A stretch of 64,000 nucleotides of DNA from Chrysomallon squamiferum. Lineage: Eukaryota > Animalia > Mollusca. The notes below the pieces were generated by a model that had not been told where the DNA came from, did no database searches, and worked only from the letters and a program-made list of their open reading frames with translations. The stretch's first letter is position 1. Each line of letters begins with the position of its first letter. The position numbers and the translations under genes were made by a program. The stretch spans positions 12,028,001 through 12,092,000 of the forward strand of contig CM022668.1 in assembly GCA_012295275.1 (NCBI GenBank). Reading direction: 5' to 3'. Shown one piece after another: positions 951 to 53,365 of the stretch.

Positions 951-15283
<14,333 letters not shown>

Positions 15284-34700: not shown

Positions 34701-34971
34701 TTTAGATGACAAAAAAAAAATGGAGATAAAATATTCCTGAGTTTTATTGAGGGTATAAAACTCGAAAATAGCTCTTGATGCTATTTTTAGTAACAAGTCC
34801 ACTCATTAAATATGTATGAGTGTACGAAAAGTAACTTTGAGAAGAGCAGATAACTCTTACCCGTACTGTCAAGAGTTGTCAACTTAATCGTTTAATAATT
34901 GTGACAGTTTTAGGGCCTCCCTAAACAACTGACATTATGCAAGAAACAAGTTGGCTATTTACAGTGTTCTA

Positions 34972-35062
<91 letters not shown>
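34701..35062 (+). mobile_element. Interspersed repeat, left copy (~270 bp core plus (TA)n(GA)n tail)
   Basis: Matches the reverse complement of 44668-45032 over long identical blocks, for example gtaactttgagaagagcagataactcttacccgtactgtcaaga and ctaaacaactgacattatgcaagaaacaagtt. Confidence 0.85.
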
Positions 35063-36429: not shown

Positions 36430-36520
36430 GATATTCGAGATGCAATTTACAACGTGAAAAACGGAAGTTAGAAAGACATGAGCATTTCCTGCTTTTAATG
36501 GTTACTCATTAAAACGTAAA
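36430..36520 (+). promoter_or_regulatory. Putative B4GALT promoter and non-coding first exon
   Basis: ETS-like aaCGGAAGtt at about 36460, a possible donor aaac|gtaaat at about 36515, and an acceptor tttcag at 36899 ahead of the ATG exon. Confidence 0.35.
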
Positions 36521-36964
36521 TAAATATATAATATTAATATATATTTTGAATAATTTTTATAGCTAAATACGAGACATTTTATGTGTGTTGTTGTAGCATC
36601 GATTTGATTAGTAGTTCTGTGTGTATTCTTTTGGATTTATATAATTGAAACTTAAGTTTGTATGAATGTAGATTGTGTTTCCGTGGTAGATTTTCAAAAC
36701 CCGAAAACGTTTTCCTAGTTACAGGAAACAATACAGTACATACTTAACTCTGTTAACAGTAAAAAATTTTTTTTTTTTGCCTATATATATATGTTTTTAC
36801 TCTTTTAAAATTTAGTTTTAAGTAATTTAGGATAAAATCACAGCATCAGTTGATTAAATGAAATTATATGTTATCAATATTTTCCCATTTTCGTTTCAGA
36901 TTTTTCAAAGATTTATTTTATTTCACGATGAGATGATACTGAGACTGATTTGATAATTATTACA

Positions 36965-37446
36965 ATGGCTATAAAGAAAGGTCGAGCACGACGTTACGTC
37001 ATCTACTTCTTATCATTTATTTATTTCTCTCTGTGGGGATTTGCGTTGTTCAATTACCGGAGCCATTGCGTTTTTACGATGCCAAACACGTTGATGGAAT
37101 TGCCACAAGTTGACAATTCAAATGCTGGCAAATGTCAGGTTAACTGGGACAGTTTAGGTAAGTTGTTAAAATATATATTTTATGAATAGCCAATTTTTTA
37201 ACTTGCACACTAATAATTTACTGAATAGTTTTAAATAAAAAACTTTTGAATTACAATAACTTGGTAATTTGTTGTTGTTTTTTTGTTTGTTTGTTTGTTT
37301 GATTTTAGAAAATAGTTTTATATTTGAATACAAATTTAATATCATTTGTATTGAACTTTTAAATATTTAATCCTTCAATTTTTATTTTCTTGAACTTTTA
37401 AATCATTTAATCTCTTCAATTTTTCTCTCTCTCTCTTCTTTCTCTC

Positions 37447-37500
<54 letters not shown>

Positions 37501-40500
37501 TTATCTCTCTATCACATTTATCCTTTATGCTGTGTTTATACAGGAATTTATAATCTGAAGATATATTCAGTAATGCTCTGTGTTTTTATTTTACAGTTCA
37601 TGTCCATGTTGATATATTCAAGGAACCAACTTTCAAAGAAATAGCTATGCAGAATACACATGTACTGAAAGGGGGGAGGTGGAAACCAGAGAAATGTCTT
37701 TCTTGGCAGAAGGTTGCCATAGTGATACCTTACAGAGACAGATTACATCATCTAAAGATTCTTCTGAGTCGAATTCATCACATGTTGTATAAACAGATGA
37801 TAGAATATAGAGTGTTTGTAGTTGAACAAGTAAGTTTTTTATAGACAAGTGTGTTTTTAAAATTTTGTATATTCAAGCATGTACATTTTTTGTTTTAATA
37901 GTCAAACAAGTTAGTTGTTTATTTTTACAGTCAAAGAAGTGACTTTTTTTTAGTCCTATGACTCTGTAAGTGAATTTTTTTTGTTGTCAAACAAGTGACT
38001 TTTTTGTTTTAATGGTCAAACAAGTGATATATTTTATTTTTGTAGTTAAACAAGTGAATTTTAATTTTTTAGTCTACTAATGAATTTAAATTTTTATAGA
38101 CAAACAATTGAGTTTTTACAGTCAAATACAATTTTTTTTATAGTAAAACAAGTAAGTTTTTAAAAAAATGTATAATCAGTTAAATGTGTTTTTTGATTTT
38201 GTGAATTTGTTATTTTTATACTGAATCAAGTGAAATTTTTTTTTTTTTTTATAAACAGTTTATTATAAATATTTGTATTTTAAAATTTGATGTTGTAAGA
38301 TAATAACTACTTAAAACATAGTCACAAAATTAATTTAAAAAACAAAAAAGTAAAAAACAAAATAAATAATGATAAACAATAACAATAATAATAAATAAAT
38401 GAATAATCTTCACAATCTCTTACTGCGTATTTAGAATTTTAACCAATCATTCAGATTTTTATATCTTTAAAATTTTTTATCCTCTTTCATTTTTAGGCTG
38501 CAGACACAAAGTTTAACAGAGGCAAACTGATGAACGTTGGTTTCCTGGAGGCTCTGAAGTTTGACAAATTCGACTGTTTTGTTCTCCACGATGTAGATTT
38601 GATCCCAGAACATTACAAAAACTACTACATGTGTGATCAGCATGCCAGGCATCTCTCTTCGGCTATTGATGAAATGAGATACCAGTGAGTAAAAGATATC
38701 CATGATATCTTATAATTTATATCACTGGATATTAAGATATAGCCACAATATTGATTATATTAGTTTTATTGATAATAATGATATCTGTTAATGTTATACA
38801 GGTATTTAATATCCATATCATTGGATTAGATATCCACAGTATTAGATAATAATCAAAAATAATATCTGTTTTTGTGGTATTAGATATCCATGATAACTGT
38901 TATAATCTATATCATTGGATATTAGATATTCAAAATATCTGTTATATATTAATTTTAGATAACAATAACAGTAATATCTGTTGTACTGGTATTGGTTATC
39001 CATAGTATCTATTATATCACTGAGTATGACATATCTATAATTCTGTGGTATTTTATATCAGTATTAGATATAAGTGGTGTCTGTTACATTATTGAGTATA
39101 TCATATCTATGGTATCAATGAATTTATAGTATTGTCATAGTGATTATAAGATATTCATTATACAAGTTAAATATGTCTTAGATGTAAATATATTTAATAT
39201 CCATGATGACAAAGAATTGAAGTTATTTATAATCACATTATCAGTTAAAGATTTTTCCATGACAGTTGATATGATTAAGTATAAAATATTCAAGATATTG
39301 GTATATGTTTAAGCATTGTTTACATATGTGAGTTTATTATATCTATTATGAGTTAAGATGTCTGATTAAATGGAGTTTATAATGTCAAATATATTTTATA
39401 TATTCATAATATAAATAAATTTAAAATAGCTTTAATAACACTGAGTTAAAGAGTACATATCTGTCAGTTTAAAATATTCATATTTGAGTTTGTGATACTG
39501 GTTATTTATAATATCCATAACTGAGTTTGTAATATCAGTTATTTAATATATCCACCCATGAATCTGTGATATCAGTTATTAAATATCTCCATATTTGAAT
39601 TTGTCATGTAAGTTATTCCAGATAACCGTATTTGCATTTGTGTTATCAGTTACTTAAGACATCCATATTTGTGACCCATCACATTGAACCAAGTCTTAAG
39701 TCTCATTTTGGATGAACATTTCTAGGTTATAGACTGAATTAGCCTCATTTTGATACCTCATCCATCCCTGTATCACTTTCAGTTCTAAAGATATGGTCAG
39801 CAATGTCTGGACAAACTGGATGGCTTCTGATTTTAAAGCAAATAATAATATTCACAAATATGTTCTAAAACACACCTATGGTTTGATTAACAATTATTTA
39901 ACATACCCTTGAGTTTGTGGTGAGTTTGTGGTATTGGTCATTTAAGATATCCTTGTTGATGATGAGTTTGTGATATCAGTTATTTAAGATATTCTTGCTG
40001 ATGGTGAGTTTGTGATATCAGTTATTTAAGATATTCTTGCTGATGGTGAGTTTATCAGTTATTTAAGATATTCTTGCTGATGTTGAGTTTGTGATATCAG
40101 TATTTAAGATATCCTGTGATATATTCATGATACAAGTGAGTTTAATGTATCTAAGATGAAAATTTGTTTAAGACATATTTTAATTTTAATGAGTTTATTA
40201 ACTGGAACTAAACGTAATTTTCAGTGTCATGTACTACAACTACGCTGGTGGGGTCATCGCCTTGAACCGCGAGAACTTCAAGAAAATCAACGGCTACGCC
40301 AACAGCTACTGGGGCTGGGGAAATGAAGATGATGATTTATCAGCAAGGTGAGTAGAACATTTAAGTTTTAAAAAAAATAATTAATTCCAAAATAAATCAT
40401 AAATCATTTAAATCTGATTTTTATTCCGTTAAATATAAGAAATATTTAAGAATTATGTTTAGCTGTGGTGGTGTTAGCAGTCTAAATATATTTTGAATAC

Positions 40501-41441
40501 TTTTAATTATCTGTTTTGTTGGTTTTTTACTAAAATCCATTCTTTGCTAATAATAAAGGTACTGCTGTATAAAAAGACTTCGTATATGGAGCGTAATATC
40601 CACTGAATGAAAAAAGAAGAAGAAAAATGGCTACTTTCATTAATTTCTCCTCACTAGTTATTTTACTGACATATTTAGCACTAGAAACAACCAGTTTTCA
40701 TAAAGAATTAACTTTGGAAAATGAAAAGTACATTTGACAGAATGTATTTATTTAGAACAAAAAATAAAATAAGAAAAGTATTACTACAAATTTTACTAAT
40801 TTTGTTGATGTTGTTATTACGATTATGATTATTATTATTATTCTTATTTATTTGTTAATATTGCTATTGTTGTTGTTGCTGCTGTTATCGTTATTATTGC
40901 TGTTGTTGTTATTATTATTGCTGTTATTTATTATTGCTCTTGTTGCTGTTGTTGTTGCTGCTGTTAATGTTGTCATTATTATTATGATTATTATTATTAT
41001 TATTGTTATTGTTATTGTTGTTGTTATTTCAGAATCCAGGCAGCAGGTTTGATGTTAACTCGACCACCGGAGCACATCGGCAGATTTAAAATGGTCAGAC
41101 ACGCAAAACAGACACGCTCAGACAACGGGTAAAACATTTCAAAAAACATTTTAAAAAAAATCGCCTAAAGCTAAAAAATAGAACAAAAAAAGTTCACAAA
41201 CCCAAAAAGAAAAAAGAAAAAAAAAATTCACATAGTTTTAGTGGAATAAGTGTATTTGGTTTTGTCTAAATATTTATATAGGTTGTTAGTTTTATTGTTT
41301 CAAAAAAAAAAAAAAAAAAAAATTATTATCTTCAAATGTAGGGTTAAAAGATGGAAAAGGTATTGTTGGGTTGTGAGTTATCTCCCATGGCATGATAGCT
41401 TCATGCTTTTTATTAACAGATTTGTAAAACACACACACACA

Positions 41442-41483
<42 letters not shown>

Positions 41484-42416
41484 ATATACCATAACATACA
41501 AACATACGAAAACACAAACACAATCATTACTACCACTGTAAATGAAACCTTTAACACATACCATCAACCATTTTTAAAACCAACAACTCCAAGCACACAC
41601 ATAATTTCTAGTTCAAACAACAACAACAACACACACACACATTTATCTCTTTAACCTTTGTTCCTCAGCAATGAAAGATTTTTTGGCTGGCATGAAAGAT
41701 GGTTAAGAGATGGCTTGAATGACCCAGTGGGAATGAACTACACAGTTCTGGGAATAAAAGAAAATGATCTGTACACAAACATTTCTGTTCACATTGGGTA
41801 CCCACCTCCCAATCTGAAAGAACTCGACAAAGATGGGCCAAAAGAGACTGTTTGGTGGTACGTTTTTAATTTTTATATTTCCTCGTAGAATTTTTTGTTA
41901 CGTACTCGTTGAATTATTGTTATATTACTGATAACGTAATTGTTATTTACTAATTGGTATAGTGGTTATATATTTTTGTAATTGATTTGCTGTTATAAAC
42001 TATCTACTAAATAATTATTATCTACTCAAAAAAAGTACAGTAATTTTCTTGTCATAGTATTCTTGATATTGTTTTACTGTATAACTATTATCTTCTTATT
42101 GGATGATTATTCATTCTAGTCACATACTTTTTATTCATTCATCAAGTAAATTATCCACTGAATAATTATTATATGCCCATTTATAGTTGTTATCTACTCT
42201 TTGAATAATTTTTATATATTCACATTGTAATTTTTTTCTGTTCAAAATGTAATTATTTTCTGGTCAGAATAATAATGATAATCTACTCATTTTATAACTG
42301 TAATCTAGTCCCTATTTGATTAATATCTAATGACAGTATATCTGTTCTTACTATTTTTGTTATTTATTTTTTTATTATTTTTTTTTTACAGGTTTTTAAA
42401 ATTCTACTATCCATAA
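36965..42416 (+). CDS. B4GALT: GT7-family beta-1,4-galactosyltransferase-like type II Golgi membrane glycosyltransferase; 7 coding exons, about 348 aa
   Basis: Exons: 36965-37157 (MAIKKGRARR plus TM segment), 37597-37829 (GGRWKP..C..KVAIVIPYRDR..HL), 38497-38684 (FNRGKLMNVGF..HDVDLIP; DxD motif), 40225-40347 (YAGGV..NGYANSYWGWGNEDDD), 41033-41128 (FKMVRH), 41669-41857 (DGLN..YTNISV), 42392-42416 (FLKFYYP*). All introns are GT-AG, phases are consistent, and the total is 1047 nt. The last micro-exon is the least certain. Confidence 0.94.
37815..38240 (+). repeat. Degenerate ~28-30 bp tandem array resembling the B4GALT exon 2 donor junction
   Basis: Units such as tttgtagttaaacaagtgaatttt and tttatagtaaaacaagtaagtttt compare with the junction tttgtagttgaacaa|gtaagtttt. 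Confidence 0.85.
38670..40150 (+). repeat. Degenerate tandem arrays in B4GALT intron 3 (about 36-38 bp unit in the regular parts)
   Basis: Unit gagtttgtgatatcagttatttaagatat(c/t)c recurs at about 39485-39670 and 39905-40120. More degenerate tagatatccat units lie at 38690-39200. Confidence 0.8.
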
Positions 42417-44188: not shown

Positions 44189-44665
44189 TTTTCTAAGGAA
44201 AATCACTGGTAAAGAAACACAATACATTTAATGTTTATATTTTTCCGACTACCGAATTAAGTTCCTTCATATTTCGGCAATTCTCGCCATTTTTATGACG
44301 TCATATATACTTTTTTTTTACGTACGCTGTTTTGATGTCACGTTCTGTATAGACAGCGGTTATACGAACTAAAAAAAAATATATATAGGACGATTCAGGA
44401 CATACCATTAGTAAATATTCTTTTGACTGAAACCTGGTACTCACAAAGAGTTGATTTATTAATATTCCCGAGCAAAAGTTTAGTTAGTGTAAGTACGCGG
44501 GATGTTAATTTAACGATATCGTTTTACCTCGTTATTTAAAGAGAAACGGCGCGCTATTTTTCATTACTTTTTTTGCTCAGCAAAACTTGATTTATCTAAA
44601 ACAGTGGTATGTATATTCCTGTTCATGTCAAGGAAAAGGCGCATATATTCTTGCTTATAATCAGT

Positions 44666-45032
<367 letters not shown>

Positions 45033-45356: not shown

Positions 45357-47865
<2,509 letters not shown>

Positions 47866-52699: not shown

Positions 52700-53365
52700 C
52701 AGAGATAAGAAAATACAGTGAATACAAGAAAGGAGGGTTGATATAAACATTAAGGGTAGGTCTGTTAGAGAGAGAGAGAGAGAGAGAGGGTGTGGGGGTA
52801 GAGATGTTAGGGAGTGGCACAGATAAAGAAATAAGAAGATGAAGGGAATATCAGAACTGAGGTTTGATGTAAATTTGAAGGGCATCTCTGTAAGAAAGCT
52901 AAGAGGGTGATAAAAATTTGTTTAGGTATGGTACATATAAAGAAATATTTAGATGTAGAGTTATTAGAAAAAAAAAAGGAGGGTCTATATAAACACTAAA
53001 TGCAGGGATGACAGAGAGAGTGGTAGAGATATTGGGTGTGGTTATATATATATAAAAAATATGAGAAGGTGGGGATATCAGAAAAATGAAAGGGAGACTT
53101 GATATAAATATTAAAGGCAGGGCTTATAGAGAGAGTGGTACAGGTATTGGGTGTGGTTATATGTAAAATATATATGAAAAATGTTGGGTTATGAGAAAAA
53201 ATAAAAGGGAGAGTTGATGTAAATATTAAGGACAAGGCTGACAGGGAGGGTGATATAGATGTTTGGGGTGGGGTATAATTGTAAAAAAATATAAATAGGT
53301 GGGGTTATTAGAAATGTGAAAGGGAGGGTCGATATACACATTAAGGCTAGGGCTGAATGAGAGTT
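52700..53365. repeat. Degenerate purine-rich ~115-125 bp tandem repeat, about 5-6 copies
   Basis: Recurring aaagggagngttgatataaa(c/t)attaagg..agggct..agagagagtggta.ag.tattgggtgtgg. Confidence 0.75.

What the first reader, a model, noticed from the sequence alone, without database searches (positions are those of the whole stretch)
37815..38240. Splice-junction echo array: B4GALT intron 2 starts with about a dozen copies of its own 5' splice site
Seen: the junction TTTGTAGTTGAACAA|GTAAGTTTT is reiterated in ~28-30 bp degenerate units, for example tttttacagtcaaagaagtgact, tttgtagttaaacaagtgaat and tttatagtaaaacaagtaagtttt. Many units keep a T-tract plus YAG, then 8 nt, then a GT(A/G)A donor-like motif, so each looks like an acceptor, an 8-nt micro-exon and a donor. 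Inference: these could be decoy or recursive splice sites, a frameshifting micro-exon array, or the footprint of a mutational process that amplifies splice junctions. The same pattern in other introns of this window points to a systematic mechanism rather than a one-off.
Basis: partly seen in the sequence, partly recalled or inferred. Interest (0 to 1): 0.8.

Follow-up and report, generated by a model that had tools for sequence, protein, structure and literature searches.

The report
Splice-donor minisatellite in snail glycosyltransferase intron
About 15 bases from the end of an exon of a snail sugar-transferase gene, with the splice signal, recur roughly a dozen times in decayed form in the next intron; assembled RNA uses only the first signal, so this is likely a harmless new example of a repeat type already known from lancelets and humans.

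Summary
Window 37815-38240 is a degenerate ~29-bp minisatellite whose consensus matches the exon/intron junction of a gastropod B4GALT-family gene better than any of 127,444 other window positions. It beats shuffled and mismatched-junction controls. The 'acceptor + 8-nt micro-exon + donor' look comes from the exon's own codons (TTT GTA GTT GAA CAA, F-V-V-E-Q). Only 4 of 13 copies keep both AG and GT, and the intron has no AG|GT recursive site. Contigs from 3 of 3 RNA runs laid join the first donor directly to the next exon; rare use is untested. Any micro-exon or downstream donor would create a premature stop. Clear donor echoes occur in 2 of 26 modelled introns, plus one weaker case, and none at acceptors. 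This is not above the self-duplication rate in other introns (p=0.28), so a splice-targeted mechanism is unproven. The layout is the known amphioxus 'mirage' / human F7 IVS7 type. This scan has noted the same kind of repeat elsewhere in this genome and in oyster, mussel, urchin and Kipferlia DNA. Verdict: new member of a known kind, most likely neutral.

The parts
37597..37829 (+). Coding exon 2 of a glycosyltransferase family 7 (B4GALT-type) gene; its last ~15 nt (F-V-V-E-Q) are the exonic part of the repeat unit
   Evidence: PF13733 E=2.3e-24; covered by RNA contigs X1-X3; F, V, E, Q of FVVEQ invariant in 5 of 5 aligned proteins
37815..37838 (+). Authentic junction = first unit of the array; donor GT at 37830, the one used
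   Evidence: (loose ends at 37830 continue as exon 3 in 3 of 3 RNA contigs)
37834..38240 (+). Degenerate minisatellite, about 13 copies, mostly 27-30 bp apart (some ~22); consensus TTTATAGTCAAACAA-GTGAGT; 21% GC
37924..37944 (+). Copy with CAG + 8 nt (37931-37938) + GTGACT; both sites score within the range of this window's real sites (acceptor 8.3, donor 5.2)
38039..38059 (+). Copy with TAG + 8 nt (38046-38053) + GTGAAT; acceptor 7.4, donor 5.9; 18/21 identical to the junction
38137..38160 (+). Copy with a donor 9-mer identical to the authentic one (GT at 38152); weak acceptor (3.7); its 8-mer would begin with an in-frame TAA
37830..38496 (+). Whole intron (667 nt, GT..AG), removed in one piece in the RNA contigs; in-frame TAG at 37842 for any read-through
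38497..38684 (+). Coding exon 3, the splice partner; not echoed in the array
   Evidence: PF13733 E=2.9e-18; acceptor-side test negative
38685..40224 (+). B4GALT coding intron 3: a second, weaker donor echo (37-42-bp units)
   Evidence: Gapped score 36.0 vs 25.1+-1.6, 0 of 23 other junctions; negative; TRF
2789..3607 (-). Intron of the SLC4 bicarbonate-transporter gene: clear donor echo (26-bp units)
   Evidence: z=5.5; z=4.8, 0 of 38 internal 14-mers higher; 40.7 vs 23.5+-2.0

Best explanation
The array is a decayed minisatellite whose unit is the gene's own exon end plus splice donor, likely made by a short tandem duplication across the junction of an existing intron and likely tolerated because splicing keeps using the first donor, as the assembled RNA shows. 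Steps. (1) Shown: the unit carries ~15 exonic and ~9-14 intronic bases of this junction. (2) Inferred: copying ran exon to intron, since F-V-x-E-Q is conserved from snails to an annelid while the array consensus has lost it (V to I, E to K). (3) Inferred: a ~29-bp duplication left the upstream copy attached to the exon, so the mRNA was unchanged; a mutated internal copy was then amplified by slippage or unequal crossing-over and drifted towards A+T. (4) Shown at contig level: the first donor is joined to exon 3. (5) Inferred from F7 IVS7: the most upstream donor wins, and rare use of the others would make premature stops removed by NMD. The micro-exon look is a by-product: the exon itself has TAG eight bases before the donor, and each copy inherits a T-run from the intronic tail of the copy before it.
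For: Junction specificity. Consensus differs from the junction at 4 of 21 positions, two of them amino-acid-changing at residues invariant in 5 of 5 proteins. RNA: 3 of 3 contigs go 37829 to exon 3 with no insert. Pseudo-donors are mostly weakened: in the three arrays 1 of 11, 1 of 8 and 0 of 7 copies reach the authentic donor's score. Local self-duplication is common in this genome's introns: 14 of 162 pseudo-junctions have a downstream echo. Published precedents with normal splicing: PMC3087553 (passages), PMC3902484 (passage), PMC1557585 (abstract, Introduction, Discussion).
Against: Contigs drop rare isoforms, and the RNA evidence is three contigs of one study at word depth 5-11. Two copies have both splice sites within the range of real sites of this window, and one has a donor identical to the real one. 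In human 6-16 and CBS the proximal pseudo-sites are used (PMC1557585 Introduction). G is kept at the AG (8/10) and GT (7/10) more often than at three other G positions (3/10, 0/10, 3/10); copies are not independent, so this cannot be tested. No independent DNA covered the array (X5), so the duplication process and length variation are inferred.
Confidence: 0.72

Rival explanations
1. Donor-targeted copying: a transcription- or splicing-coupled lesion at 5' splice sites (pausing, R-loops, breaks at the GC/AT step) seeds downstream-polar duplications, so donors are real hot spots. The arrays remain functionless.
For: 3 of 26 donors vs 0 acceptors with an exon-spanning echo. 3 of the 6 modelled introns with a complex array have donor-derived units (my reading of the table). 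3/23 vs 22/951 outside genes, p=0.019.
Against: 3/23 vs 12/162 in other introns, p=0.28; with the first filter 2/22 vs 11/101, p=0.71, and vs 28/733, p=0.20. Exon-only rank test 4 of 24, p=0.21. The filters were relaxed after so that all three echoes passed, and background windows overlap. Published mirages occur at both boundaries.
Confidence: 0.14
2. Low-level poison micro-exon or decoy donors: one or two copies (37931-37938, 38046-38053, 38144-38151) are included or chosen in some tissues and tune enzyme level through NMD.
For: Two copies have acceptor 8.3/7.4 and donor 5.2/5.9 against real minima of 5.4 and 4.9; the copy at 38152 has the authentic donor 9-mer and an in-frame TAA; upstream intron lengths of 101-314 nt are feasible. 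Pseudo-site use is known for human 6-16 and CBS.
Against: Not seen in 3 of 3 contigs. Only 4 of 13 copies keep both AG and GT; +5 G is kept in 3 of 10. The other two arrays mostly lose GT (3 of 8 and 2 of 7 keep it). 8-nt exons generally need dedicated enhancers (general knowledge, recalled).
Confidence: 0.1
3. Recursive splicing or a translated micro-exon array.
For: Only the visual AG..GT pattern.
Against: 0 AGGT in the intron; the intron is only 667 nt; single units stop within 0-13 codons; the two in-frame triples with feasible spacing both contain TAA, and the two open triples need a 21-nt intron.
Confidence: 0.02
4. Chance resemblance of an unrelated AT-rich repeat to the junction, or an assembly artefact.
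For: The region is 21% GC; no independent DNA run covers it.
Against: Junction is the best match to the array consensus among 127,444 positions; controls; copies are only ~66% alike, unlike collapsed or duplicated reads.
Confidence: 0.02

Closest known systems
Amphioxus 'mirages' (Adh3 10-72 bp units; globins BflGb6, BflGb9; troponin C; PGBD5). PMC3087553 and PMC3902484, passages read; the original Adh3 paper not seen
   Same: Minisatellite-like tandem copies of an exon-intron boundary running into the intron; many but not all units keep splice signals; normal mRNA splicing; several genes per genome affected.
   Different: Here in a gastropod; units are short (29 bp) and far more decayed (~66% matches vs 81-100% for BflGb6); only donor-side cases among 26 introns; length polymorphism and somatic instability not tested.
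Human F7 IVS7 37-bp VNTR, and the similar arrays in 6-16, CBS, LAMIN B2 and PDGF. PMC1557585, abstract, Introduction and Discussion read
   Same: First monomer spans the donor, so the donor is reiterated down the intron, and the most upstream site is the one used.
   Different: F7 pseudo-sites are identical and hold 4 exonic bases; here 15 exonic bases are copied and only 1 of 13 copies keeps the authentic donor 9-mer. The copied exon end happens to include a YAG.
Intron gain by tandem duplication of an AG/GT proto-splice site (Rogers model, as summarised in PMC3087553)
   Same: Tandem duplication of exon sequence containing AG and GT.
   Different: The array does not include exon 3 sequence or the acceptor, and Gigantopelta models diverge right after the same EQ, which fits an older intron that the array invaded (inference).

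Membership tests
Mirage / boundary-spanning minisatellite | Repeat unit contains both exon and intron sequence of the flanking junction | tested here: met
Mirage / boundary-spanning minisatellite | Head-to-tail minisatellite-sized units extending into the intron | tested here: met
   Period 29, 10 copies by permissive TRF; about 13 by anchoring
Mirage / boundary-spanning minisatellite | Many but not all units keep splice signals | tested here: met
   9 of 13 keep GT, 8 of 13 keep AG, 4 of 13 both
Mirage / boundary-spanning minisatellite | Normal mRNA uses the authentic site | tested here: met
   3 of 3 RNA contigs; major form only
Mirage / boundary-spanning minisatellite | Length polymorphism or somatic instability | not testable with these tools
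   No DNA run covered the array; no whole genome held
Mirage / boundary-spanning minisatellite | Internal units homogenised apart from the boundary unit | tested here: inconclusive
   8 of 9 copies are closer to the array consensus than to the junction and 1 ties, but that is partly by construction
F7-type VNTR with identical pseudo-donors | Pseudo-sites identical to the authentic donor | tested here: not met
   1 of 13
Recursive splice sites | Juxtaposed AG|GT inside the intron (definition recalled) | tested here: not met
   0 AGGT in 667 nt
Functional micro-exon array | Inclusion in mRNA | tested here: inconclusive
   Absent from 3 of 3 contigs, which cannot show rare forms
Functional micro-exon array | Reading frame kept | tested here: not met
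   8-nt units; all feasible combinations reach a stop
Glycosyltransferase family 7 (host gene) | Glyco_transf_7N and 7C domains | tested here: met
   PF13733 in exons 2 and 3, PF02709 in exon 4; sugar specificity not tested

The most novel reading that the evidence does not exclude
In this snail lineage 5' splice sites are hot spots of a polar, transcription- or splicing-coupled copying process that hits about one donor in eight and spares acceptors, with selection letting only donor-weakened units amplify and occasionally leaving an NMD-triggering 8-nt poison exon.
Probability: 0.15. Interest if true: 0.55.

Novelty: new member of a known kind. Interest (0 to 1): 0.2.

Why it matters
As it stands it extends mirage-type repeats to a gastropod and gives a natural test of 'first donor wins' outside mammals. 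It also warns annotators that such introns mimic micro-exons. The origin of mirages is described as unclear in PMC3087553. If a genome-wide count showed donor-specific enrichment, it would point to splicing-linked mutagenesis and make that question testable. One window cannot show it.

Tried and rejected
No whole genome is held, so the genome-wide test could not be run. A homologue search with exon 1 alone found nothing. A metagenome scan for orthologous loci found none: 589 pattern hits, 0 confirmed, so conservation of the array in relatives is untested. The RNA laying ended inside the intron, so the exon 2-exon 3 join is read from the contigs' loose ends. SLC4 intron 6513-5626 passed the ungapped test (z=6.1) but is A-rich and failed the gapped one: dropped. 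SLC4 intron 2647-1927 has an acceptor-adjacent repeat with no exon part: dropped. SLC4 intron 4956-4209 looks donor-like by eye but failed. The 22-23-bp array in B4GALT intron 41858-42391 is not a junction echo (78 and 90 of 100 shuffles score as high). The 'archived old allele' idea from notes on Kipferlia does not fit: of three exonic consensus changes two are amino-acid-changing at invariant residues. Literature: six searches listed no report of such repeats in a gastropod; the library lacks most subscription papers, and I read no supplements.

Full report
Setting. The window is animal DNA of about 20-38% GC per 2 kb, dense in microsatellites. It holds an SLC4 bicarbonate-transporter gene on the minus strand (20 exons, open over 1,116 codons; best named hits are gastropods at 57-60%) and a glycosyltransferase family 7 gene on the plus strand (PF13733, PF02709). 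The closest named protein is from Gigantopelta aegis (75% over 83% of exon 2), so the host is a gastropod, likely near that genus. Coding exons: 36965-37157, 37597-37829, 38497-38684, 40225-40347, 41033-41128, 41669-41857 and probably 42392-42416. The 7-exon end aligns better to the Solemya homologue than the 6-exon read-through (86 vs 63).

Observation. The junction at 37815-37838 is followed by about 13 decayed copies up to 38240, mostly 27-30 bp apart. Against dinucleotide shuffles, other donors and other introns, the match is unique to this pair: 0 of 300, 0 of 23 and 0 of 23 reach it. A gapped test with local shuffles gives 39.7 vs 25.9+-1.5. Using exon sequence alone, the terminal 14-mer outranks 52 of 52 internal 14-mers. 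The consensus of the copies, built without the junction, matches it at 17/21, higher than at any of 127,444 other positions. The echo is real.

Anatomy. The unit is about 15 exonic bases, the donor and a T-run. The exon ends TTT GTA GTT GAA CAA, which contains TAG eight bases before the donor. Each copy therefore inherits AG-8nt-GT, and the T-run of the previous copy supplies an apparent pyrimidine tract. Two of these would change residues invariant in 5 of 5 aligned proteins, so the copies are decayed derivatives of the exon and not the reverse (inference). The shared changes suggest that a mutated internal unit, not the junction itself, was amplified (inference).

Splicing. Four RNA runs from one study hold part of the gene; I laid three of them and X5. 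Each RNA run gave one contig that joins exon 1 to exon 2 and leaves the stretch at 37829/37830 with the sequence of exon 3, with no extra bases. Contigs cannot show rare forms. By matrices trained on 24 other introns of the window, two copies have both sites within the real range, and the copy at 38152 has the authentic donor 9-mer, so rare use is possible. All outcomes are unproductive: read-through meets TAG after four codons, single 8-mers stop within 0-13 codons, and the two triples with feasible spacing contain TAA. There is no AGGT in the intron, so it is not recursive.

Is it systematic? Of 26 modelled introns, the SLC4 intron 3607-2789 is a clear donor echo in all three tests. B4GALT intron 3 passes the gapped test only. 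No acceptor has an exon-spanning echo. Local duplication is, however, common. One-sided echoes: 3 of 23 donors passing the filter, 12 of 162 pseudo-junctions in the other introns (p=0.28), 22 of 951 outside modelled genes (p=0.019). Those filters were relaxed, where the comparisons gave p=0.71 and 0.20; background windows overlap. The exon-only rank test gave 4 of 24 (p=0.21). So the pattern recurs, but targeting of donors is not shown. In all three arrays the copies have weaker donors than the real one (1 of 11, 1 of 8, 0 of 7 reach it). General G/C loss could explain that as well as selection.

Mechanism. Most likely a short tandem duplication crossed the donor of an existing intron. The upstream copy stayed with the exon, so the mRNA did not change, and the intronic copies expanded and decayed like any minisatellite. 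Preference for the most upstream donor is shown for human F7 (PMC1557585; abstract, Introduction, Discussion) and is inferred here. The three Gigantopelta RefSeq models continue 'EQ-VR' into unrelated sequence at exactly this point, which fits a donor at the same position; whether that intron has an array I could not see.

Known context. Amphioxus 'mirages' are minisatellite-like duplications of exon-intron boundaries with 10-160 bp units that do not disturb splicing and whose origin is called unclear (PMC3087553 passages; PMC3902484 passage). Human F7, 6-16, CBS, LAMIN B2 and PDGF have donor-spanning minisatellites. I reached these papers through earlier notes of this scan and read the cited parts myself. 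Those notes also list similar arrays in oyster, mussel, urchin, Kipferlia and another piece of this genome; I did not check them. Six literature searches listed no gastropod case.

Verdict. Real, explained, and of a known kind: a mirage-type donor minisatellite, likely neutral. Interest 0.2. The open point worth a genome-wide count is whether donors are preferred seeds.

Noticed in passing
window 2789-3607 (minus strand): SLC4 intron filled with donor-derived repeats that change from 17-25-bp to 47-bp to a young 26-bp array (81% matches) with distance from the exon.
   Followed up: partly
window 38685-40224: B4GALT intron 3 (1,540 nt, the longest modelled) is largely GATATC-type repeats; the 42-bp units near its 3' end resemble the donor 1.2 kb upstream.
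   Followed up: partly
window 41858-42416: Probable last intron and 25-nt last coding exon; the intron's first 31 nt (GT..AG) read YVFNFYISS*, loosely like the exon's FLKFYYP*, and a 22-23-bp array follows. Not significant as an echo; no RNA check.
   Followed up: partly
P0121, P0125, P0126 (Gigantopelta aegis LOC121387752): All three RefSeq models stop resembling the family right after exon 2 (EQ then VR), suggesting read-through of this donor or a broken annotation; X2 also lacks 14 residues at the start of exon 2.
   Followed up: partly
window 1932-2372 (minus strand): TTAC/TACTTA-rich repeat just upstream of an SLC4 acceptor, giving many branch-point-like motifs; contains no exon sequence.
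   Followed up: partly
window 46205-46570: Isolated GC-rich Ig-like exon (weak Ig_3/I-set/V-set hits, E 0.01-0.05) preceded by a ~175-bp duplication at about 45810-46100.
   Followed up: no
window 34830-35000 and 44660-44930: Two inverted copies of one ~150-bp repeat next to (TA)n(GA)n tracts, one on each side of the B4GALT gene (seen by eye).
   Followed up: no
window 52932-53363: 115-bp tandem repeat, 3.8 copies, outside modelled genes.
   Followed up: no
window 36516-36899: 5'-UTR intron of the B4GALT gene shown by the loose end of one RNA contig (X3).
   Followed up: yes
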